41,939 bases of DNA from a virus. The notes beneath the pieces were generated by a model. That model searched no databases, was not told where the DNA came from, and saw nothing but the letters and a program-made list of their open reading frames with translations. The position numbers and the translations under genes were made by a program. This document shows positions 6,503 to 27,286 of the stretch, in pieces; the stretch's first letter is position 1; every line of letters begins with the position of its first letter. The stretch is taken from positions 1-41,939 of IMG/VR virus record IMGVR_UViG_3300045988_014288; one strand, 5' to 3'.

Positions 6503-7057
6503 ATGAGAGATATTAAAGACTTATGCGCAAGAATCGAAGATGAACTGTCCAAAATCGCTGACAATGGACTTACCACCGGAAATCTGGAAATGACATACAA
6601 ACTGATTGATATGTACAAAGATATCAAGAATACGCAGTACTGGGATAAGAAAGTAGAGTACTACAACACTGTCCTTGATGAGATGCGTAGCGGCTACAAT
6701 GACGATTACAGCGAACGTGGAAGAAAACGTGACAGTATGGGGAGATACAGCTCAAATGATGGCAGAATGATGCCAGATTACGACCGGGGCAGTTCCTATG
6801 CCAGACGTGGCGAACATTATGTCAGAGGGCATTACAGCCGCTCTGACGGACGAGATGCTTATGACGACTATATGACGCAGAAACAGAGCTATCGCTCCGG
6901 TAAATCTGAGGACTGCAAAAGAAAGATGCTTGCCGCTCTGGAAGAGCATCTGGACGAACTTACAACAGAAATGAGCGATATGTCCAAGGATGCAGAATGC
7001 CGGGAAGAACGTGATCTTGTAAAGAGATACGTAGAAAAACTCCGTGATATGCTCTAA
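6503..7057 (+). CDS. hypothetical protein, helical ends around an R/S/Y/D/G-rich low-complexity core (cassette gene E)
   Basis: RBS AGGAGG 7 nt upstream of ATG 6503. Central stretch SERGRKRDSMGRYSSNDGRMMPDYDRGSSYARRGEHYVRGHYSRSDGRDAYDDY. Confidence 0.65.
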   Translation: MRDIKDLCARIEDELSKIADNGLTTGNLEMTYKLIDMYKDIKNTQYWDKKVEYYNTVLDEMRSGYNDDYSERGRKRDSMGRYSSNDGRMMPDYDRGSSYARRGEHYVRGHYSRSDGRDAYDDYMTQKQSYRSGKSEDCKRKMLAALEEHLDELTTEMSDMSKDAECREERDLVKRYVEKLRDML

Positions 7058-7063
7058 AAACGC

Positions 7064-7103
7064 AAAAGTGGTAGAGAGGTAGTTAAAATAAATCTGTTAT
7101 AAT
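7064..7103 (+). promoter_or_regulatory. promoter, copy A: AAAAGTGGTAGAGAG - 16 nt - TGT TATAAT
   Basis: The 15-nt motif is identical to 38296-38310 and has identical 16-nt spacing to an extended -10 (TGnTATAAT). It lies upstream of the scaffold and capsid genes. Confidence 0.6.
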
Positions 7104-7189
7104 GTAATTGTGCAGCAGGAAGCACAAGTAAAACGGTTGTTTTTGACATTTTCGTTTTAATCCTCCTTTCTTTAATTTTTGTAGCTGGT

Positions 7190-7237
7190 GCGCACGCTTA
7201 ATGGAAAGTTAAGCAGGTTCGAGTCCTGCCGTGCGTA
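7190..7237 (+). ncRNA. tRNA-like module 1 (acceptor stem + single hairpin + canonical T-arm; no D-arm)
   Basis: GCGCACG (7190-96) pairs with CGTGCGT (7230-36). Hairpin CTTAA-TGGAAAG-TTAAG (7197-7213). T-arm GCAGG-TTCGAGT-CCTGC (7213-29). Discriminator-like A at 7237. Confidence 0.5.
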
Positions 7238-7384
7238 TTTGCCATCTGGCACGCAAGATGGCTCACCTCCTTGATTAAGGTTTTTGTTATTCATACTTTT
7301 CTTTAAAAAAGAAATAAATATCCGAAACAACTCGTGGCAGGCATGACACGTTAAACACCTTGCTAACCCGGGAATCTGGGTTAT

Positions 7385-7455
7385 GTGGAACCTATCGGCT
7401 ATAGAACGAATATCTATAGATACAAGTTTTCCAGTTCGACTCTGGAAGCTCCACT
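7385..7455 (+). ncRNA. tRNA-like module 2 (imperfect acceptor stem + 7-bp hairpin + canonical T-arm; no D-arm)
   Basis: GTGGAAC (7385-91) pairs with GCTCCAC (7448-54) at 6/7. Hairpin CTATAGA-ACGAATA-TCTATAG (7399-7419). T-arm TCCAG-TTCGACT-CTGGA (7430-46). Confidence 0.45.
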
Positions 7456-7530
7456 TACCTCGCCAGTGGTCTAACTGGCTTAATCCATACCTGCGGCGGC
7501 AGGTCAATAAAAACGGCCAGGAGGATATAT

Positions 7531-8163
7531 ATGCAGAAACTTATTGACACATTAAAATCATTTGGAATTGAAATCCCGGAGGATAAACAGGCAGATGTTA
7601 AGAAAGCACTCTCTGAACATTACAAAAATGCAAAGGAAGTAGCGAAAACTCTGTCAAAAGTTGAGGGAGAACGAGATGACTGGAAAGAACGTGCCGAGAC
7701 AGCAGAAGAAACCTTGAAAGGGTTTGACGGTATCGACCCGGCAAACATTCAGACAGAGCTTGCTGGATGGAAAAAAAAAGCGGAGAACGCAGAAAAAGAG
7801 TTTAATGCGAAAATCTATGACCGCGATTTCTCAGATGCGCTCAAAGCGGCACTCGACGATGTTAAGTTTTCTAGTGAAGCGGCAAAGAAGTCTGTTATGG
7901 CAGACATCAAAGAAGCAGGTCTTAAGCTGAAAGACGGTAAAATCCTTGGACTGAATGACCTGATTGAGCAGATGAAGCAGTCTGACGCATCCGCTTTTGT
8001 GGATGAATCTCAGCAGCAGGCTCAGCAGAATCAGGCAAGATTTACCACTCATGTTGGACAGCAGCAGACACCGGGAAACATGACAAAGAAAGATATCGAA
8101 GCAATCAAAGACCCGTCCGAGAGACAGGCTGCAATTGCTCAGAACATCCAGTTATTCCAGTAA
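7531..8163 (+). CDS. scaffolding protein (GP20-like minor structural protein)
   Basis: RBS AGGAGGA. 210 aa, highly charged and helical, K/E/A-rich with a Q-rich C-terminus. Sits immediately upstream of the major capsid gene. Confidence 0.8.
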   Translation: MQKLIDTLKSFGIEIPEDKQADVKKALSEHYKNAKEVAKTLSKVEGERDDWKERAETAEETLKGFDGIDPANIQTELAGWKKKAENAEKEFNAKIYDRDFSDALKAALDDVKFSSEAAKKSVMADIKEAGLKLKDGKILGLNDLIEQMKQSDASAFVDESQQQAQQNQARFTTHVGQQQTPGNMTKKDIEAIKDPSERQAAIAQNIQLFQ

Positions 8164-8238: not shown

Positions 8239-9408
8239 ATGCCAGCAAAAACTAATCTTATTATGACTAGTGATATTCAGGTCACAGCACGTGAGATTGA
8301 TTTTGTTACCAGATTCGAAAGAAACTGGCAGCACTTACGTGACATTCTGGGTATCATGAGACCTATCAAAAAGCAGCCGGGTGCTGTACTCAAGTCTAAA
8401 TATGCAGAGGGTACTTTACAGAGCGGAAATGTTGGTGAGGGCGAGGAAATCCCTTACAGCAAGTTTACTGTAAAAGAAAAGACCTATGCAGAAATGACTA
8501 TCGAAAAGTACGCAAAGGCTGTATCTATCGAAGCAATTAAGGATCACGGTTATGAGAACGCTGTTCAGATGACCGATGATGAATTCCTTTTCCAGCTTCA
8601 GACTGATGTTACCAGCAGATTCTACGACTATCTGAAAACCGGTACACTTACTTCCACAGAAACAACATTTCAGATGGCTCTGGCAATGGCTAAAGGCCGT
8701 GTAGAAAACAAATTCAAACAGATGCACAGAAATGTGACTGGCGTTGTTGGGTTTGTCAACATTCTGGACGTATATGAATACCTCGGAGCAGCTGAGATCA
8801 CTATTCAGAACCAGTTCGGATTCCAGTACATGAAAGATTTCATGGGGTTCAATACAATCTTCCTGTTATCCGACAGTGAAATCCCGAGAGGACAGGTTAT
8901 CGCTACTCCCGTTGAGAACATCGTACTTTACTATGTTGATCCGAACGAATCTGACTTCGCAAGAGCAGGACTTGTATACACTGTATCTGGCGAGACAAAC
9001 CTGATCGGATTCCATACACAGGGCAACTACCACACAGCAGTGTCCGAAGCGTTCGCGGTTATGGGTCTTACTCTTTTTGCGGAGTACATTGACGCAATCG
9101 CAGTAATCACCATTGATGAGACACCGACCCTCGGTACTCTGACAGTAAATTCCGCGGCTGGAACAGCAAGTGGCGACACAAAAATCACTGTAAATCCGGC
9201 TAAGGAAAGTGCTGGCAATGTGTATAAATACAAAGTTGCGGCAGACGCAGTAACTGTTGGATATGGACAGAACCTCAGAAATTGGACTTCTTGGGACGGA
9301 AAAGCTGACATCAAGGCAGCAACCGGACAGAAGATCACAGTAGTTGAGTGTGATGGAACATACAAGGCACTGAATGCCGGAAGCGCAAGCGTAACAGCAA
9401 AATCATAA
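8239..9408 (+). CDS. major capsid protein (HK97-fold type) with C-terminal Ig-like extension
   Basis: 389 aa following the scaffold gene. The C-terminal ~95 aa (TLGTLTVNSAAGTASGDTKITVNP...ITVVECDGTYKA...) looks like a beta-sandwich Ig-like domain. Confidence 0.8.
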   Translation: MPAKTNLIMTSDIQVTAREIDFVTRFERNWQHLRDILGIMRPIKKQPGAVLKSKYAEGTLQSGNVGEGEEIPYSKFTVKEKTYAEMTIEKYAKAVSIEAIKDHGYENAVQMTDDEFLFQLQTDVTSRFYDYLKTGTLTSTETTFQMALAMAKGRVENKFKQMHRNVTGVVGFVNILDVYEYLGAAEITIQNQFGFQYMKDFMGFNTIFLLSDSEIPRGQVIATPVENIVLYYVDPNESDFARAGLVYTVSGETNLIGFHTQGNYHTAVSEAFAVMGLTLFAEYIDAIAVITIDETPTLGTLTVNSAAGTASGDTKITVNPAKESAGNVYKYKVAADAVTVGYGQNLRNWTSWDGKADIKAATGQKITVVECDGTYKALNAGSASVTAKS

Positions 9409-23585: not shown

Positions 23586-23853
23586 GTTAGACACACGTTA
23601 GTCACAAATAAAAATATTGTTTCCTAATATAATAGTGGCAAAAACACTGTATTTACAGGCGTTTGCGCAATTTTCTAAATTCTATTTGTTAGTCACAAAC
23701 AATAAAATTAGAATAATGAAAATGAAATGTGGGAAATCCTTGCAAAATCGCTAAAAACGTTGATTTTAATAGGGTTTCCAGCATTTCAATAATGATAATT
23801 CGGTTGTTTTAGAAAGATTAAAATGGGTTCCGTTAGTCACAGTTAGTCACAAA
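23586..23853. repeat. attP-like region with four perfect plus one degenerate direct copies of GTTAGTCACA (putative integrase arm-type sites)
   Basis: Perfect copies at 23597, 23688, 23832 and 23842. Degenerate GTTAGACACA at 23586. The last two overlap the 3' end of int. Confidence 0.6.
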
Positions 23854-25011
23854 TGGAACTTTTATCTTTTCTATTTCTGTCCGAAGTTCTTCCAGTGTCC
23901 TGTGGCCGTACACAGCATTTGTAACATCTCCGCCAAAAGAGTGGCCAAGCATTCGCTTTCGATCATTCTCACGGACACCATATTTTTCGCACAATGCAGA
24001 AAAGGTGTGTCGACAATCGTGTGGCGTATGCTTCGGATCGCCGACTATTCCTAAACGCTCCAGTGTAGGATAGAACAATGCTTTTCTATGATGTTGCTGA
24101 GTATATACGCATAGTTTTCCATTTTGTGTCAGCACTTTCTGTTCAACAAAATGATATACGGCAGAATGTATCGGAACGATTCTGTTTTTACCGGCTTTTG
24201 TTTTGATTCCACCTTGAAAGTATTTCTCTTCCAGGTTGGTTGTAAGTTTTAACACTTCGCCAATTCGCCATCCAGAATAACACATAATAAGAATGAGTTG
24301 CACTTCCGGGTCGTCGGCATTATTCCACAACACCTGCATCTCCTGATCAGAAAATGGCGTTCCATGTTCGGTGTCATTATCAGCATTGACATGGACATAT
24401 AACGCCTTATTTTCCGTTACAATTTCTGAGTAGACTGCATATTTGTACATCTGCTTGAACAGAGTCAAAATAGCTATCTGGCTTTGTTTTTTCAGCTTAC
24501 AATCATCAATAACCTTTTGCATATCAGGAGCCTTTAAATCTTCGAATATGCGATTGTGCAGAACAGTACAGTTCGTATAAGCTGTCCGGTATGCTTCTTT
24601 CGAACTGTATGACAGCTTTGTACCCTCTGGGAACTTCCACGCATAAAACTGTTTATATACCTCTGAGAACGTCAATTTCTTGATTTCCGGGTGTTTATCC
24701 TCGACGCCCTTGATTGTATTGTAGTCGGCAATTAAGCGGTTCACAAGGGTGCCTATGTCCGTTGTAGGAGATACCTCAAGAGTCCGTTCCATGCCGGGTT
24801 GATACGTGCCAGCTTTGTAAGCTGTCAGGACAGTGAAGCCTTTTATCCAGTCATCTACATAGCAGATTGCCGGCGGACGGACAAGAGCACCAAAATCATC
24901 TTTAAATGCTGGTGGATGCACCGCAAAGCAGTTTCTCCGGTTCTTGCCAAGGTAACGGATGCTGCCGAAACTATTTGGAAGTTTCGGATATTTTTTTCTT
25001 TTCTTCGACAT
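23833..25011 (-). CDS. int: tyrosine recombinase / integrase
   Basis: C-terminal catalytic motifs HDCRHTF, LGH and the Tyr in VYGHRT. Internal ATG 25011 with AGAGGA RBS is preferred over 25104. Confidence 0.9.
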   Translation of the reverse strand: MSKKRKKYPKLPNSFGSIRYLGKNRRNCFAVHPPAFKDDFGALVRPPAICYVDDWIKGFTVLTAYKAGTYQPGMERTLEVSPTTDIGTLVNRLIADYNTIKGVEDKHPEIKKLTFSEVYKQFYAWKFPEGTKLSYSSKEAYRTAYTNCTVLHNRIFEDLKAPDMQKVIDDCKLKKQSQIAILTLFKQMYKYAVYSEIVTENKALYVHVNADNDTEHGTPFSDQEMQVLWNNADDPEVQLILIMCYSGWRIGEVLKLTTNLEEKYFQGGIKTKAGKNRIVPIHSAVYHFVEQKVLTQNGKLCVYTQQHHRKALFYPTLERLGIVGDPKHTPHDCRHTFSALCEKYGVRENDRKRMLGHSFGGDVTNAVYGHRTLEELRTEIEKIKVPFVTNCD

Positions 25012-25148
25012 TTTATTCCTCTTTTCTTTATAGCTGTTTTTAGGTATAAAAATAACAGCCGAACAAATTTTCTGTCTTGTTCGACTGCTCCGAAGATGAT
25101 ACAATATGTTTTGCCAGAATATAGCATCTCTCCGGAGATGTATAAACG

Positions 25149-26350: not shown

Positions 26351-26389
26351 AAAAGGGGCAGGAGTTATTTCCTGTCCCCATCTTTTTAT
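26351..26389. terminator. bidirectional terminator between convergent genes
   Basis: Stem ggggcagg / cctgtcccc (one bulge), flanked by an A-run upstream and a T-run downstream. Confidence 0.65.
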
Positions 26390-26757
26390 TCCTCTTTCTT
26401 GTCCGCTAAAGCGTTCGCAAGTTTCTGAAGTGTTTCCCATTCTGATTCATTTAGATTAGCAAGTATTTCTACTAATCGTATCTTGAAGCTATCTGCTTCT
26501 CCATTCAGAACCGAACCAACGAAATCCGCAATCTCGGATTTTCTCTTATTCTGGATGAACATATCACCTGTTCCCTTAGTCAGCCATTCGTAGTTGACTT
26601 TGAATTCCCTACAGATATCCTTGACAGTTCGATCTGATGGAACTCTTTCTCCTTTTTCTATCATCCAAACAAAGTTCTTAGATACCCCGATTTTCTCGGC
26701 GAACTCATCCTGAGTCATCTTCGCAGTCTTTCTTATTTGTTGAATCCTGGTATTCAC
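26386..26757 (-). CDS. CI-like repressor (XRE-family HTH)
   Basis: HTH_3 motif IRKTAKMTQDEFAEKIGVSKNFVWMIEKG. The second GTG (26757) lies 8 nt after AGGAGG, whereas the first GTG overlaps the RBS. Confidence 0.85.
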   Translation of the reverse strand: MNTRIQQIRKTAKMTQDEFAEKIGVSKNFVWMIEKGERVPSDRTVKDICREFKVNYEWLTKGTGDMFIQNKRKSEIADFVGSVLNGEADSFKIRLVEILANLNESEWETLQKLANALADKKEE

Positions 26758-26789
26758 TCTTTTCACCTCCTATTCTTAACTGCAAGTAT

Positions 26790-26867: not shown

Positions 26868-27286
26868 AATAACACAAGGTAACACAAAGCCTTGAGCGTT
26901 TACCACAATCTGATAGAAACAAGGCTTCTATTAAATAAAAAGAAACTGCTAGGGGTCTCGTCCCTAACAGCTCTTTACCAAATTTGTTTACCCTATGTAC
27001 TTTGCAGGCTGACGCCACATCTGACGAGACCAAATGCTTCTTGAAGCACCTTGTCACTTTCGCAGTCTTGGTTCTGCAACATGCCTAATCGCTGACAAAA
27101 CAATCAGAGCCGTCTTTGACCTGTTTTAACTGTCGAGGTATCAGTACGGACGGATTAAGAGCAAAGGGAGCAGGCAAATTCAAAAGTTGGGTCATGATAA
27201 CCACTCCTTTCCTTTGCCAATAGGCATTAACTAGGATAACACAAATAAGTGGTAAACGCAACTAAAAATAAGTAGGGGGTGATTTT

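What the first reader, a model, noticed from the sequence alone, without database searches (positions are those of the whole stretch)
7180..7504. Two D-armless tRNA-like modules in a ~420-nt non-coding leader upstream of the scaffold/capsid genes
There is no credible ORF here. The 111-codon antisense frame is TTG-initiated, lacks an RBS and translates a T-arm backwards (ARQDSNL). The + strand carries two canonical T-arms, GCAGG-TTCGAGT-CCTGC (7213-29) and TCCAG-TTCGACT-CTGGA (7430-46).
- Each T-arm is followed directly by a 7-nt strand that pairs with an upstream partner: GCGCACG/CGTGCGT (6 Watson-Crick plus 1 G-U), and GTGGAAC/GCTCCAC (6 of 7).
- Each module has only one further hairpin with a 7-nt loop: CTTAA-TGGAAAG-TTAAG and CTATAGA-ACGAATA-TCTATAG.
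- Both loops are centred on GAA (the place of a Phe anticodon), but both lack U33, and neither module has a D-arm.
- TGTAGCT (7180-86) can also pair 6/7 with AGCTCCA (7447-53), which would enclose the whole ~270-nt domain.
- Further stable hairpins lie at 7241-62, 7365-82, 7462-79 and 7489-7504.

Possible roles are RNase P/Z processing signals that liberate a stable capsid mRNA, tRNA mimicry (CCA-adding enzyme, synthetase or defence-nuclease decoys), or a new structured RNA class.
Basis: seen in the sequence. Interest (0 to 1): 0.7.

Follow-up and report, generated by a model that had tools for sequence, protein, structure and literature searches.

The report
Non-decoding tRNA-shaped RNAs before phage scaffold gene
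The non-coding stretch before this gut phage's scaffold and capsid genes holds two tRNA-shaped RNAs that cannot decode: one is a worn-down version of a swappable tRNA gene, the other belongs to an uncatalogued, conserved mini-tRNA-like motif, and both probably act as structural or cutting signals for the late messenger RNA.

Summary
The window is a temperate Lachnospiraceae phage. Bases 7058-7530 are a non-coding leader between a phrog_28802 gene and the PF06810 (ex-GP20) scaffold gene.

In hundreds of related phage contigs this leader is a modular non-coding RNA island. It carries 1-4 tRNA or tRNA-like units, plus RAGATH-21, ROOL or GP20-b RNAs in some relatives.

Module 2 (7385-7454) sits exactly in the slot where most relatives carry a callable tRNA, with at least 11 different anticodons. 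It is a recurrent non-decoding allele found in 52 contigs. It keeps the acceptor stem and T-arm only.

Module 1 (7187-7239) is not D-armless. It lacks the anticodon arm and keeps a D-like hairpin and a T-arm. It belongs to a motif supported by covariation (34 members; 9 of 10 P1 pairs covary). This motif is absent from Rfam 15, occupies the RAGATH-21 slot and shares its junction sequence.

Not conserved: the GAA "anticodons", the 270-nt closing helix and the antisense ORF.

Most likely function, by inference only: tRNA-shaped punctuation, cut by RNase P and RNase Z, that defines the scaffold/capsid mRNA 5' end. Module 1's 10-bp stem fits this less well.

Verdict: a new variant of a known kind, of moderate interest.

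The parts
7095..7103 (+). Possible extended -10 promoter, TGTTATAAT, for the leader and late transcript
   Evidence: Read from the sequence. It is conserved in relatives with a module-1-type leader, and TGGTAAAAT sits at the same place in RAGATH-21-type leaders. The consensus scan, which needs both hexamers, did not call it. This is inference only.
7110..7125 (+). 5' hairpin GUGC-AGCAGGAA-GCAC
   Evidence: Present in the MFE fold. An analogous hairpin, GTGGTTACAGCCAC, occurs in RAGATH-21-type leaders.
7161..7170 (+). UCCUCCUUUC motif just upstream of module 1 (resembles an anti-Shine-Dalgarno sequence)
   Evidence: A similar ACCUCCU(U/A)U motif lies upstream of the mini tRNA-like element in L185 and L083. 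Its function is unknown.
7187..7239 (+). Module 1, a mini tRNA-like element lacking the anticodon arm. P1 is 7187-7196 paired with 7230-7239; its inner 7 bp (7190-7196 with 7230-7236) match a tRNA acceptor stem. The D-like hairpin is 7196-7209 and the T-arm is 7213-7229.
   Evidence: Rfam tRNA gives a partial match of 18.5 bits with the anticodon arm deleted. The covariance model R1 built here scores 76.9 bits at 7185-7241 and has no other hit in the window. Covariation: 94.8% of cells paired, 13 of 19 pairs with changes on both sides, and 0 of 500 shuffles as good.
7241..7262 (+). Hairpin GCCAUCU-GGCACGCA-AGAUGGC following module 1
   Evidence: Relatives show only changes on one side (A to G, C to U) that keep pairing. 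An equivalent hairpin follows RAGATH-21 in other relatives.
7265..7280 (+). CACCUCCUUG-AUU-AAGG motif, conserved after both module 1 and RAGATH-21
   Evidence: Its function is unknown.
7324..7383 (+). Conserved 'leader A' ending in the 8-bp hairpin UAACCCGG-GAAU-CUGGGUUA (7364-7383), one base before module 2
   Evidence: Found in 45 sequence variants across relatives. RNAalifold supports only the terminal hairpin and a small stem. There is no Rfam match.
7385..7454 (+). Module 2, a non-decoding tRNA-like cassette in the last tRNA slot. Acceptor: 7385-7391 with 7448-7454 (6 of 7 pairs). Vestigial 2-bp hairpin: 7391-7398. A 7-bp hairpin with a 7-nt loop: 7399-7419. T-arm: 7430-7446.
   Evidence: It occupies the same position as callable tRNAs in relatives, ending about 76-78 nt before the scaffold ATG. 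The same allele occurs in 52 contigs as 12 variants. ARAGORN calls it only at an 80% threshold. Fold.
7455..7530 (+). Highly conserved 5' UTR of the scaffold gene. It starts with UUACCUCG and contains hairpin 7462-7479 (loop UGGUCUAA), hairpin 7489-7504 and the Shine-Dalgarno sequence AGGAGG at 7519-7524.
   Evidence: Nearly invariant across the 57 distinct upstream sequences aligned from the 80 related loci and the window. It is retained in L081 and L082, whose scaffold proteins are only 72% and 56% identical, with one compensatory change in hairpin 1, C-G to G-C. It occupies the position that GP20-b RNA holds in L083, L249 and L268.
7531..8163 (+). Scaffold protein gene (PF06810, formerly GP20), followed by the major capsid gene at 8239-9408
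   Evidence: Pfam PF06810 at 80.2 bits. PHROGs: phrog_194 and phrog_544.

Best explanation
The 473-nt leader (7058-7530) is the local version of a modular non-coding RNA island that Lachnospiraceae phages carry between a phrog_28802 gene and their PF06810 scaffold gene.

The island is built from tRNA-shaped units, and its content is shuffled by recombination. Related phages carry real tRNAs with many anticodons, several kinds of non-decoding tRNA-like RNA, RAGATH-21, ROOL or GP20-b at the same positions.

Module 2 is a non-decoding allele of the last tRNA cassette. It has lost the D-stem and a usable anticodon loop, but it keeps the acceptor/T-arm 'top half' and the conserved CCA-less junction with the 5' UTR.

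Module 1 is a member of a conserved, uncatalogued mini tRNA-like motif. This motif has a long closing stem, a D-like hairpin and a T-arm, but no anticodon arm. It replaces RAGATH-21 and appears to be related to it.

Proposed mechanism (inferred, not shown): the host tRNA-processing enzymes recognise the acceptor/T-arm shape. RNase P would cut 5' of module 2, near 7385/7386. RNase Z would cut after its discriminator, near 7454/7455. These cuts would release the upstream ~150-nt spacer RNA, which ends in the 7364-7383 hairpin. They would also create a scaffold/capsid mRNA with a fixed 5' end, UUACCUCG..., followed by two conserved hairpins.

Module 1 would act either as a second punctuation mark or, given its 10-bp stem, as a compact tRNA-elbow-like fold near the 5' end of the leader transcript.
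For: Shown here:
1. Slot homology. In 61 of 77 distinct last-slot cassettes (199 loci) ARAGORN calls a tRNA that ends at the same junction with the conserved UUACC flank. The anticodons include CAT, GTA, TAC, TAA, TTG, CTG, GTT, TGT, TAT, GCT and TTT. In the loci scanned with Rfam, the slot tRNAs score 35-74 bits.
2. Top half retained. All 77 cassettes keep a T-arm (at least 4 of 5 bp) and acceptor pairing of at least 6 of 7, while 16 of them lose a callable cloverleaf.
3. Selection on non-decoding forms. Several independent non-decoding forms persist and show compensatory changes:
   - the window-type allele;
   - the L049 type, whose anticodon stem is capped by a 5-nt loop, with CAGAG/CUCUG changing to CAGGG/CCCUG;
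   - the mini tRNA-like family.
4. Position next to the UTR. A tRNA or tRNA-like unit always directly abuts the structured scaffold 5' UTR:
   - in L249 and L268, a tRNA, then 4 nt, then GP20-b;
   - in L083, the mini tRNA-like element, then 0 nt, then GP20-b;
   - in L262, the mini element, then UUACCCC.
5. ROOL in L053 is flanked by tRNAs on both sides with no spacer. This fits excision of non-coding RNAs by tRNA processing.
6. None of the slot cassettes encodes CCA, and a U-rich trailer follows the discriminator.

From established knowledge:
- An embedded tRNA must be excised by RNase P and RNase Z.
- Acceptor/T-arm minihelices are minimal substrates of both enzymes.
- Firmicutes use RNase Z for tRNA precursors that lack an encoded CCA.
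- ROOL and GOLLD RNAs are known to sit in phage tRNA arrays (PMC5737381, PMC12286853, PMC12990946).
Against: - There is no transcript or end-mapping data, so cleavage is not shown.
- The closing stem of module 1 and its family is 8-12 bp. It pairs the positions that would be -1 to -3 and 73 to 75. A canonical RNase P or RNase Z substrate has a 7-bp acceptor and a free discriminator.
- In module 2, an 8-bp hairpin ends one base before the predicted RNase P site, so there is almost no single-stranded 5' leader.
- In module 2, the T-stem plus acceptor stack is 13 bp if A7447 pairs.
- The window copy of module 2 has an A-C mismatch in the acceptor.
- Many relatives keep complete tRNAs with proper 7-nt anticodon loops. 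Decoding or anti-defence benefits therefore also act on this slot, and the degenerate alleles could simply be young pseudogenes.
- Variation within the window-type module 2 allele is too small to prove its helices by covariation.
Confidence: 0.5

Rival explanations
1. The modules are functionless remains of tRNA genes. Cassette turnover by recombination leaves decaying pseudo-tRNAs, and only the real tRNAs in relatives matter.
For: - Module 2 fails ARAGORN and the Rfam gathering score.
- Its window copy carries an extra acceptor mismatch compared with the commonest allele.
- Many cassettes look chimeric. A 5' strand TGGAATG combined with a 3' strand CTTTCCG gives a U6-U67 mismatch.
- The A-C mismatch recurs with the shared GCTCC 3' strand.
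- Variation within the module-2 allele is small, so purifying selection is not proven.
Against: - Module 1's family shows strong covariation over many different P1 sequences and is syntenic in phages with only 57-77% scaffold identity.
- The L049-type non-decoding form has compensatory changes.
- All 77 cassettes keep the T-arm and acceptor pairing. Neutral decay should erode all arms equally.
- The module-2 allele is found in 52 contigs and in two different slots.
Confidence: 0.17
2. The modules are tRNA mimics acting as decoys or sponges. They would titrate a host factor that recognises the tRNA top half or elbow, such as a tRNA-targeting defence nuclease, RNase P, RNase Z, the CCA-adding enzyme or a modification enzyme. 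The variable real tRNAs in relatives would replace tRNAs destroyed by anticodon nucleases.
For: - The slot shows rapid turnover of anticodon identity among phages with 97-99% identical scaffold proteins.
- Unusual anticodon loops, such as CGCAUAG with G33, occur on at least four different stems.
- Phage tRNAs with anticodon-loop changes are reported to evade tRNA-targeting defences (PMC10264068, PMC11555353, PMC11464382).
- Module 1 retains exactly the D-loop GG and the T-loop that make the tRNA elbow.
Against: - Forms without an anticodon loop cannot act as decoys for anticodon nucleases.
- No defence or target partner is identified.
- The strict position next to the scaffold 5' UTR is not explained by a role in trans.
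- Nothing here tests binding.
Confidence: 0.15
3. The modules are uncleaved structural domains of a long scaffold 5' UTR or leader RNA. They would stabilise the transcript, as tRNA scaffolds do, or set up translational control of the scaffold gene, for example autoregulation by the scaffold protein together with the conserved hairpins and CCUCC motifs.
For: - Module 1's family has an 8-12-bp closing stem that is poorly suited to RNase P or RNase Z.
- In some relatives the mini element directly abuts GP20-b, which Rfam lists as cis-regulatory.
- The 5' UTR is nearly invariant, and its first bases (CCUC, 7458-7461) can pair with the Shine-Dalgarno sequence in the MFE fold.
- CCUCC motifs flank module 1.
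Against: - Real tRNAs in the same slot must be excised to function, so at least in those relatives the leader is cut there.
- The pairing between the CCUCC motifs and the Shine-Dalgarno sequence is not supported by covariation. RAGATH-21-type leaders have UCAUCCUUUC but the same Shine-Dalgarno sequence.
Confidence: 0.15
4. The region encodes a protein on the minus strand (the 111-codon ORF at 7172-7507), or it is a phage attachment site carrying a tRNA gene fragment.
For: An ORF of 111 codons exists. Attachment sites of phages that integrate into tRNA genes carry tRNA 3' halves (general knowledge).
Against: - The ORF starts with TTG. In relatives it is replaced by ORFs of 42-151 aa with different sequences and frames, and cassette swaps break it.
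- Both strands of each acceptor stem are present and covary.
- The integrase (PF00589) lies at 23833-25104, 16 kb away.
Confidence: 0.02

Closest known systems
Phage-encoded tRNA genes and tRNA arrays with associated large non-coding RNAs (ROOL, GOLLD)
   Same: The genomic slot is the same as that of bona fide tRNAs in relatives. The acceptor stem and canonical T-arm are present. No CCA is encoded. ROOL (RF03087, 371 bits) sits in the same island in L053, flanked by tRNAs, as the literature describes for ROOL and GOLLD (PMC5737381, PMC12286853).
   Different: The window's two modules are not tRNAs. ARAGORN finds nothing, and Rfam tRNA scores 18.5 bits against a gathering score of 29. Module 1 has no anticodon arm. 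Module 2 has no D-stem and its loop lacks U33 and a purine at 37. The window has no ROOL.
RAGATH-21 RNA (Rfam RF03097; function unknown)
   Same: It occupies the same syntenic slot as module 1 and has the same flanks: TTGACAT...TCCTTTC upstream, and a hairpin plus CACCUCCUUG downstream. It has a ~10-bp closing stem and the junction CUUAAYRGAAA. Its last hairpin has a 7-nt loop directly before the 3' strand of P1. An intermediate form (L083 type) matches the RAGATH-21 model at 21.5 bits, with its T-arm aligned to P4.
   Different: Module 1 lacks P2 and P3 and has a canonical T-arm in place of P4. The RAGATH-21 model does not hit the window at an E-value of 10 or better. Homology is inferred from synteny and the intermediate form, and is not demonstrated.
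tRNA-like domains that keep the elbow but not the anticodon loop: the tmRNA tRNA-like domain and the bacterial Y RNA YrlA
   Same: An acceptor-like stem, a T-arm and D-loop GG residues are combined without a decoding anticodon loop. The literature describes this as tRNA mimicry (10.1101/312249; general knowledge for tmRNA).
   Different: There is no tag reading frame and no tmRNA call. There is no Ro-binding stem, and the topology differs from YrlA, whose ends lie at the Ro-binding stem. There is no G3-U70 pair, and the closing stem is 10 bp. Neither is a family member.
tRNA punctuation and tRNA-like processing signals (mitochondrial polycistrons; MALAT1 mascRNA and MEN-beta)
   Same: This is a functional analogy only. 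A tRNA-shaped fold inside a longer transcript is recognised by RNase P and RNase Z to define the ends of neighbouring RNAs (PMC11693755 for mascRNA and menRNA; general knowledge).
   Different: Those systems are eukaryotic or organellar. Here cleavage is not shown, and the sequences are unrelated.
GP20-b RNA (Rfam RF03003), a candidate cis-regulatory motif upstream of GP20/PF06810 scaffold genes
   Same: It has the same position as the window's conserved 5' UTR (7455-7530): directly after a tRNA or mini tRNA-like unit and directly before the scaffold Shine-Dalgarno sequence.
   Different: There is no sequence or model match in the window. The window's UTR has two different hairpins.

Membership tests
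tRNA (RF00005) | Complete cloverleaf detected by standard tools (ARAGORN default settings; Rfam gathering score of 29 bits) | tested here: not met
   ARAGORN finds 0 genes in the window. Rfam tRNA scores 18.5 bits at 7190-7237 and has no hit on module 2. ARAGORN calls module 2 only at an 80% threshold, as an 84-nt 'Tyr(ata)'.
tRNA (RF00005) | A 7-bp acceptor stem contiguous with a 5-bp T-stem and a 7-nt T-loop (UUCRANY) | tested here: met
   Module 1 has 7 of 7 pairs (one G-U), directly after the T-arm. Module 2 has 6 of 7 pairs in the window and 7 of 7 in the commonest allele, with one extra A between the stems.
tRNA (RF00005) | D-arm with G18 and G19 | tested here: inconclusive
   Module 1 has a D-like hairpin, GCUU-AAUGGA-AAGU, aligned to the D-arm by Infernal. 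An alternative 5-bp pairing overlaps it. Module 2 has only a 2-bp CC/GG hairpin.
tRNA (RF00005) | Anticodon arm: a 5-bp stem and a 7-nt loop with U33 and a purine at position 37 | tested here: not met
   Module 1 has no such arm. Module 2 has a 7-bp stem and loop ACGAAUA, with C33 and U37.
tRNA (RF00005) | Aminoacylation and use in translation | not testable with these tools
   This needs biochemistry.
RAGATH-21 (RF03097) | Match to the Rfam model at the gathering score (70.3 bits), with P1, P2, P3 and P4 | tested here: not met
   There is no hit in window 7000-7600 at an E-value of 10 or better. Relatives score 75-94 bits at the homologous place.
RAGATH-21 (RF03097) | A ~10-bp closing stem, the junction CCUUAAuAGAAA, and the same genomic slot and flanks | tested here: met
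   P1 is 7187-7196 paired with 7230-7239. The junction is CUUAAUGGAAAG. The upstream and downstream flanks are shared.
Mini tRNA-like motif defined here (model R1) | P1 of at least 7 bp, a D-like hairpin with loop AAYGG, a short linker, then a T-arm directly before the 3' strand of P1 | tested here: met
   The window scores 76.9 bits at 7185-7241. It was part of the seed alignment, so this match is by construction. Independent members score 37-59 bits. Covariation.
tmRNA | A tRNA-like domain plus a tag reading frame detected by ARAGORN | tested here: not met
   (ARAGORN -m mode) find none.
Canonical RNase P / RNase Z substrate | A 12-bp acceptor plus T-stem stack with an unpaired discriminator and single-stranded flanks | tested here: inconclusive
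   Module 2 has roughly 12-13 bp with a free 3' trailer, UUACCUCG, but a hairpin ends 1 nt before its 5' end. In module 1 the stem continues for 3 more pairs (U-A, G-U, G-U), and family members have stems of 8-12 bp. Cleavage itself cannot be tested here.

The most novel reading that the evidence does not exclude
Module 1 represents a previously unrecognised class of 'elbow-only' tRNA mimics, built from a long closing stem, a D-like hairpin and a T-arm. These mimics are under purifying selection in Lachnospiraceae phages and in some environmental phages, and they form the evolutionary bridge between tRNAs and the orphan RAGATH-21 RNA. Together with the other non-decoding tRNA-like cassettes, they would show that these phages use the tRNA shape, not decoding, as a cis-acting device. 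This device would recruit host tRNA-recognising machinery to set the 5' end, stability or translation of the scaffold/capsid mRNA, and to excise ROOL-type RNAs.
Probability: 0.3. Interest if true: 0.75.

Novelty: new variant of a known kind. Interest (0 to 1): 0.55.

Why it matters
Phage tRNA islands, ROOL and the RAGATH motifs are known but have no assigned function. This locus places them in one modular, recombining leader just upstream of the genes that, in tailed phages generally, are among the most strongly expressed.

Three points stand out:
- tRNA-shaped RNAs that cannot decode are kept by selection.
- RAGATH-21 may be derived from a tRNA.
- ROOL and the scaffold 5' UTR are bounded precisely by tRNA ends.

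Together these give a concrete and cheap test of the idea that tRNA processing punctuates phage late transcripts and releases these orphan RNAs. The test needs only end mapping and RNase P/RNase Z assays on a lysogen or on in vitro transcripts.

The swappable tRNA slot, with many anticodons and unusual G33 loops among near-identical phages, is also a natural data set for the idea that phage tRNAs counter host tRNA-targeting defences.

Tried and rejected
- ARAGORN in standard, relaxed, mitochondrial, D-armless and tmRNA modes gave nothing at default thresholds. At low thresholds it gave only implausible calls.
- Rfam at gathering score finds nothing in the leader. At an E-value of 10 or better it finds only sub-threshold tRNA and chance hits.
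- An exact-pattern scan of GTDB genomes for the 3' flank gave 0 hits. The protein-based scan then gave 5 Lachnospiraceae or Clostridium prophages.
- GenBank phages gave only 5 unannotated fecal contigs, covering module 2 and its flank.
- A literature search for RAGATH-21 gave no paper, and the supplement of Weinberg 2017 is not held.
- The long-range helix 7180-7186 with 7447-7453 is rejected as not conserved.
- The shared GAA 'anticodon' is rejected.
- The antisense 111-aa ORF and the 31-aa minus-strand ORF (7054-7149) are rejected. The first is not conserved. The second is broken by a 7-nt indel in L014.
- The attachment-site idea is rejected.
- Pairing of the upstream CCUCC motif with the scaffold Shine-Dalgarno sequence was considered and not supported. 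RAGATH-21-type leaders lack CCUCC at that place but keep the same Shine-Dalgarno sequence.
- For leader A, RNAalifold supports only the terminal hairpin. Three correlated columns may reflect haplotype linkage rather than pairing.
- Model R1 does not detect module 2 or RAGATH-21 above noise. The link between module 1 and RAGATH-21 therefore rests on synteny, shared flanks and the L083-type intermediate.
Full report
**1. What is at the coordinates**

The window is a temperate siphovirus-like phage. Its genes include:
- a minor capsid protein (PF06152);
- a scaffold protein (PF06810, formerly GP20) at 7531-8163;
- a major capsid protein at 8239-9408;
- an integrase (PF00589) at 23833-25104 on the minus strand.

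Bases 7058-7530 lie between a phrog_28802 gene and the scaffold gene.

- the two T-arms at 7213-7229 and 7430-7446;
- the 7-nt strands that pair with upstream partners, GCGCACG 7190-7196 with CGTGCGT 7230-7236, and GTGGAAC 7385-7391 with GCTCCAC 7448-7454;
- four further hairpins.

Standard tools find no known RNA here. ARAGORN calls no tRNA or tmRNA. Rfam finds nothing in the leader at gathering score.

Each module folds on its own into the proposed shape. The energies are -19.4 and -19.3 kcal/mol, and the z-scores against shuffled sequences are -2.65 and -2.86.

The T-loop word alone is not significant: 2 matches against 1.14 expected by chance.

**2. Corrections to the anatomy**

- With permissive thresholds, the Rfam tRNA model aligns 7190-7237 as acceptor, D-arm (GCUUAAUGG-AAAGU), T-arm and acceptor, with the whole anticodon arm deleted. 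The score is 18.5 bits against a gathering score of 29. Module 1 therefore lacks the anticodon arm, not the D-arm.
In relatives the 7213/7229 pair changes from G-C to A-U, which assigns it to the T-stem.
- In module 2, one extra base (A7447) separates the 5-bp T-stem from the 3' strand.
- The GAA in the two loops is a coincidence. The commonest allele of module 2 has loop ACAAAUA.
- The proposed 270-nt closing helix uses the variable 3' strand of module 2 and is not conserved.
- The antisense ORF is not conserved. The longest ORFs in relatives are 42-151 aa, with different sequences.

**3. Relatives show a modular RNA island**

More than 500 IMG/VR contigs encode a relative of the scaffold protein, and the best 80, which were kept, are 97-99% identical. 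Their leaders are 470-1350 nt long and hold 1-4 units that carry a T-loop.

*The last slot.* In most relatives ARAGORN calls a tRNA that ends 76-78 nt before the scaffold ATG. This is exactly where module 2 ends.
- The anticodons differ widely: CAT, GTA, TAC, TAA, TTG, CTG, GTT, TGT, TAT, GCT and ACA, plus TTT in a prophage with 56% scaffold identity.
- The slot tRNAs in the loci scanned with Rfam score 35-74 bits.
- The sequence after the slot, UUACCYYG followed by two hairpins and the Shine-Dalgarno sequence, is almost invariant.
- It is still recognisable in prophages with 56-72% scaffold identity, with one compensatory change in the first hairpin.

*Other RNAs in the island.*
- RAGATH-21 (75-94 bits) sits at the place of module 1 in 15 of the 20 loci scanned.
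- ROOL (371 bits) occurs in L053, flanked by tRNAs on both sides without a spacer.
- GP20-b and skipping-rope RNAs occur in more distant prophages.

*Hosts.* The hosts are Lachnospiraceae.

The literature already notes that ROOL and GOLLD lie in phage tRNA arrays and may be co-transcribed with tRNAs (PMC5737381, PMC12286853, PMC12990946).

**4. Module 2**

The window-type cassette occurs in 52 contigs as 12 variants. It can also sit in an internal slot.
- The commonest allele has a perfect 7-bp acceptor (GTGGAAC with GTTCCGC or GTTCCAC). The window copy has an A-C mismatch.
- Variation is too small for a covariation test.

Across 77 distinct last-slot cassettes (199 loci), every one keeps a T-arm and acceptor pairing of at least 6 of 7. 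Only 61 are callable as tRNAs. The acceptor search was greedy, so 6 of 7 is a lenient criterion.

Other non-decoding forms exist in the island:
- A frequent tRNA-like form has its anticodon stem capped by a 5-nt loop. Its stem shows a compensatory change, CAGAG/CUCUG to CAGGG/CCCUG.
- Further reduced forms occur in L081 and L185.
- Many cassettes are chimeras of a 5' half and a 3' half from different tRNAs. This points to recombination inside the conserved tRNA arms.

**5. Module 1**

Module 1 is conserved in many relatives.

A wider search found members with quite different closing stems but the same core. The core is C(C)UUAAYGGAAGG, a short linker and a T-arm. The closing stems are:
- GCACACG/CGTGTGT;
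- GTACATGG/CCATGTAC;
- GTTGCGCACAG/CUGUGUGCAAU;
- AUGGCACACGG/CCGUGUGCCAU;
- GACACACAG/CUGUGUGUC;
- UUCCUUUG/CAAAGGAG;
- CUCCUCCCUCC/GGAGGGAGGAG.

Most members lie between the phrog_28802 homologue and a scaffold gene of 57-77% identity.

Covariation was counted on a model-based alignment of 34 members:

| Measure | Result |
|---|---|
| Cells forming a standard pair | 94.8% |
| Pairs with changes on both sides | 13 of 19 |
| P1 pairs that covary | 9 of 10 |
| Shuffles reaching the observed values | 0 of 500 |
| Cells paired in slid-partner controls | 36-57% |

An earlier MAFFT alignment of 23 members gave 97% paired.

In the window the model hits only 7185-7241. No Rfam 15 family covers this motif.

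*Relation to RAGATH-21 (inferred).* Module 1 shares with RAGATH-21:
- the genomic slot;
- both flanks;
- a ~10-bp closing stem;
- the junction CUUAAYRGAAA.

An intermediate form (L083 type) shares GGUUGAAAA with RAGATH-21. It is aligned by the RAGATH-21 model at 21.5 bits, with its T-arm on P4 and with P2 deleted. I read this as RAGATH-21 having a tRNA-like topology and being related to the mini tRNA-like motif. This reading is not demonstrated.

**6. How it most likely works**

*Shown:*
- the slot homology;
- retention of the tRNA top half;
- selection on non-decoding forms;
- tRNA or tRNA-like units directly abutting the structured scaffold 5' UTR. L249 and L268 have a tRNA, 4 nt, then GP20-b. 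L083 has the mini element directly followed by GP20-b. L262 has the mini element followed by UUACCCC.

*Inferred from established tRNA biology:*
- Where a real tRNA sits in the slot, RNase P and RNase Z must cut it out. The scaffold mRNA in those phages then begins at the conserved UUACC.
- Module 2 keeps what these enzymes minimally need, and so probably keeps this punctuation role after losing decoding.
- Cutting would also release the ~150-nt spacer RNA (7238-7384), which ends in the 7364-7383 hairpin.

*Weak points:*
- No RNA data are available.
- A hairpin ends one base before module 2.
- The closing stem of module 1's family is 8-12 bp, which is not a canonical substrate. For module 1, a role as a compact elbow-type fold is about as likely as cleavage. 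Such a fold could serve stability, recognition by a tRNA-binding factor, or control in cis.

I give the overall processing model 0.5.

*Rivals:*
- neutral pseudogenes, 0.17;
- decoys for tRNA-recognising factors, 0.15;
- an uncleaved regulatory leader domain, 0.15;
- coding sequence or attachment site, about 0.02.

**7. Comparison with what is known, and novelty**

- The modules are not members of the tRNA family, because the cloverleaf and anticodon-loop features are not met.
- They are not members of RAGATH-21 as modelled, nor of tmRNA.
- They work most like tRNA punctuation and tRNA-like processing signals such as mascRNA.
- In shape, they resemble the elbow-retaining mimics of tmRNA and YrlA.
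- The island as a whole is a known kind of locus: a phage tRNA array with ROOL.

What is new:
- a mini tRNA-like motif supported by covariation;
- its link to RAGATH-21;
- the evidence that non-decoding tRNA shapes are maintained directly upstream of the scaffold 5' UTR.

Verdict: a new variant of a known kind, with an interest score of 0.55.

Noticed in passing
window 26940-27099 (-): A full-length FuFi-1 RNA (RF02986, 136 bits against a gathering score of 59.6) lies in the lysogeny region, near the integrase and upstream of the minus-strand ORF 26386-26766. It is an orphan structured RNA of unknown function.
   Followed up: no
L053 2218-2923 (leader of a relative): A ROOL RNA (RF03087, 371 bits, 2282-2843) is bounded without spacers by a Met(CAT) tRNA (2217-2290) and a Ser(GCT) tRNA (2839-2923). 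It lies in the same scaffold leader that is only 473 nt long in the window.
   Followed up: partly
Last tRNA slot of relatives, e.g. L005, L018, L077, L080 (about 2850-2925): Otherwise well-formed CAU tRNAs carry the anticodon loop CGCAUAG (G33 instead of the universal U33) on at least four different anticodon stems. Variants CACAUAG, CGUAUAG and UGCUGAA also occur. This looks like selection for an unusual loop and may relate to evasion of anticodon nucleases.
   Followed up: partly
Last tRNA slot across L001-L080: Phages with 97-99% identical scaffold proteins carry tRNAs with at least 11 different anticodons in one slot. Some backbones differ only in the anticodon (loops cuuGUaa, cuuAUaa, cuuACaa). 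Many are 5'/3' chimeras with a U6-U67 mismatch.
   Followed up: partly
window 7455-7530: The scaffold 5' UTR, with hairpin loops UGGUCUAA and GGCG, is almost invariant among relatives whose scaffold proteins are 97-99% identical. It is still largely retained in prophages with only 56-72% scaffold protein identity. In the MFE fold its first bases, CCUC 7458-7461, pair with the Shine-Dalgarno GAGG. It is a candidate cis-regulatory element, analogous in position to GP20-b and not in Rfam.
   Followed up: partly
window 7161-7170 and 7265-7274: Two + strand motifs resemble the 3' end of 16S rRNA (UCCUCCUUUC and CACCUCCUUG-AUU-AAGG). The second is conserved after both module 1 and RAGATH-21. No conserved minus-strand ORF explains them.
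   Followed up: partly
window 7324-7383: A conserved 60-nt 'leader A' (GAAACAACUCGUGGCAGGCAUGACACGUUAAACACCUUGCUAA plus an 8-bp hairpin) precedes the tRNA slot in most relatives. Three of its columns are correlated (C/U, G/A, C/U). This could be a pseudoknot or just linked haplotypes. There is no Rfam match.
   Followed up: partly
L185 leader (reverse strand of the locus, about 1885-1920) and L204: An intrinsic-terminator-like hairpin with a run of five U residues lies immediately before the last tRNA of the scaffold leader. A still more reduced 'acceptor plus T-arm only' element lies upstream of it.
   Followed up: no
L260 11412-11471 and 12811-12872 (-); L180 6665-6722 (+): Members of the mini tRNA-like motif occur in environmental contigs with no detectable scaffold-gene context. 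L260 has two copies 1.4 kb apart. The motif is therefore not restricted to the scaffold leader.
   Followed up: no
window 8239-9408: The major capsid protein carries a C-terminal domain that matches the S-layer protein SbsC C-terminal domain (PF18316, 58.9 bits, residues 307-387). It is probably an Ig-like decoration domain.
   Followed up: no
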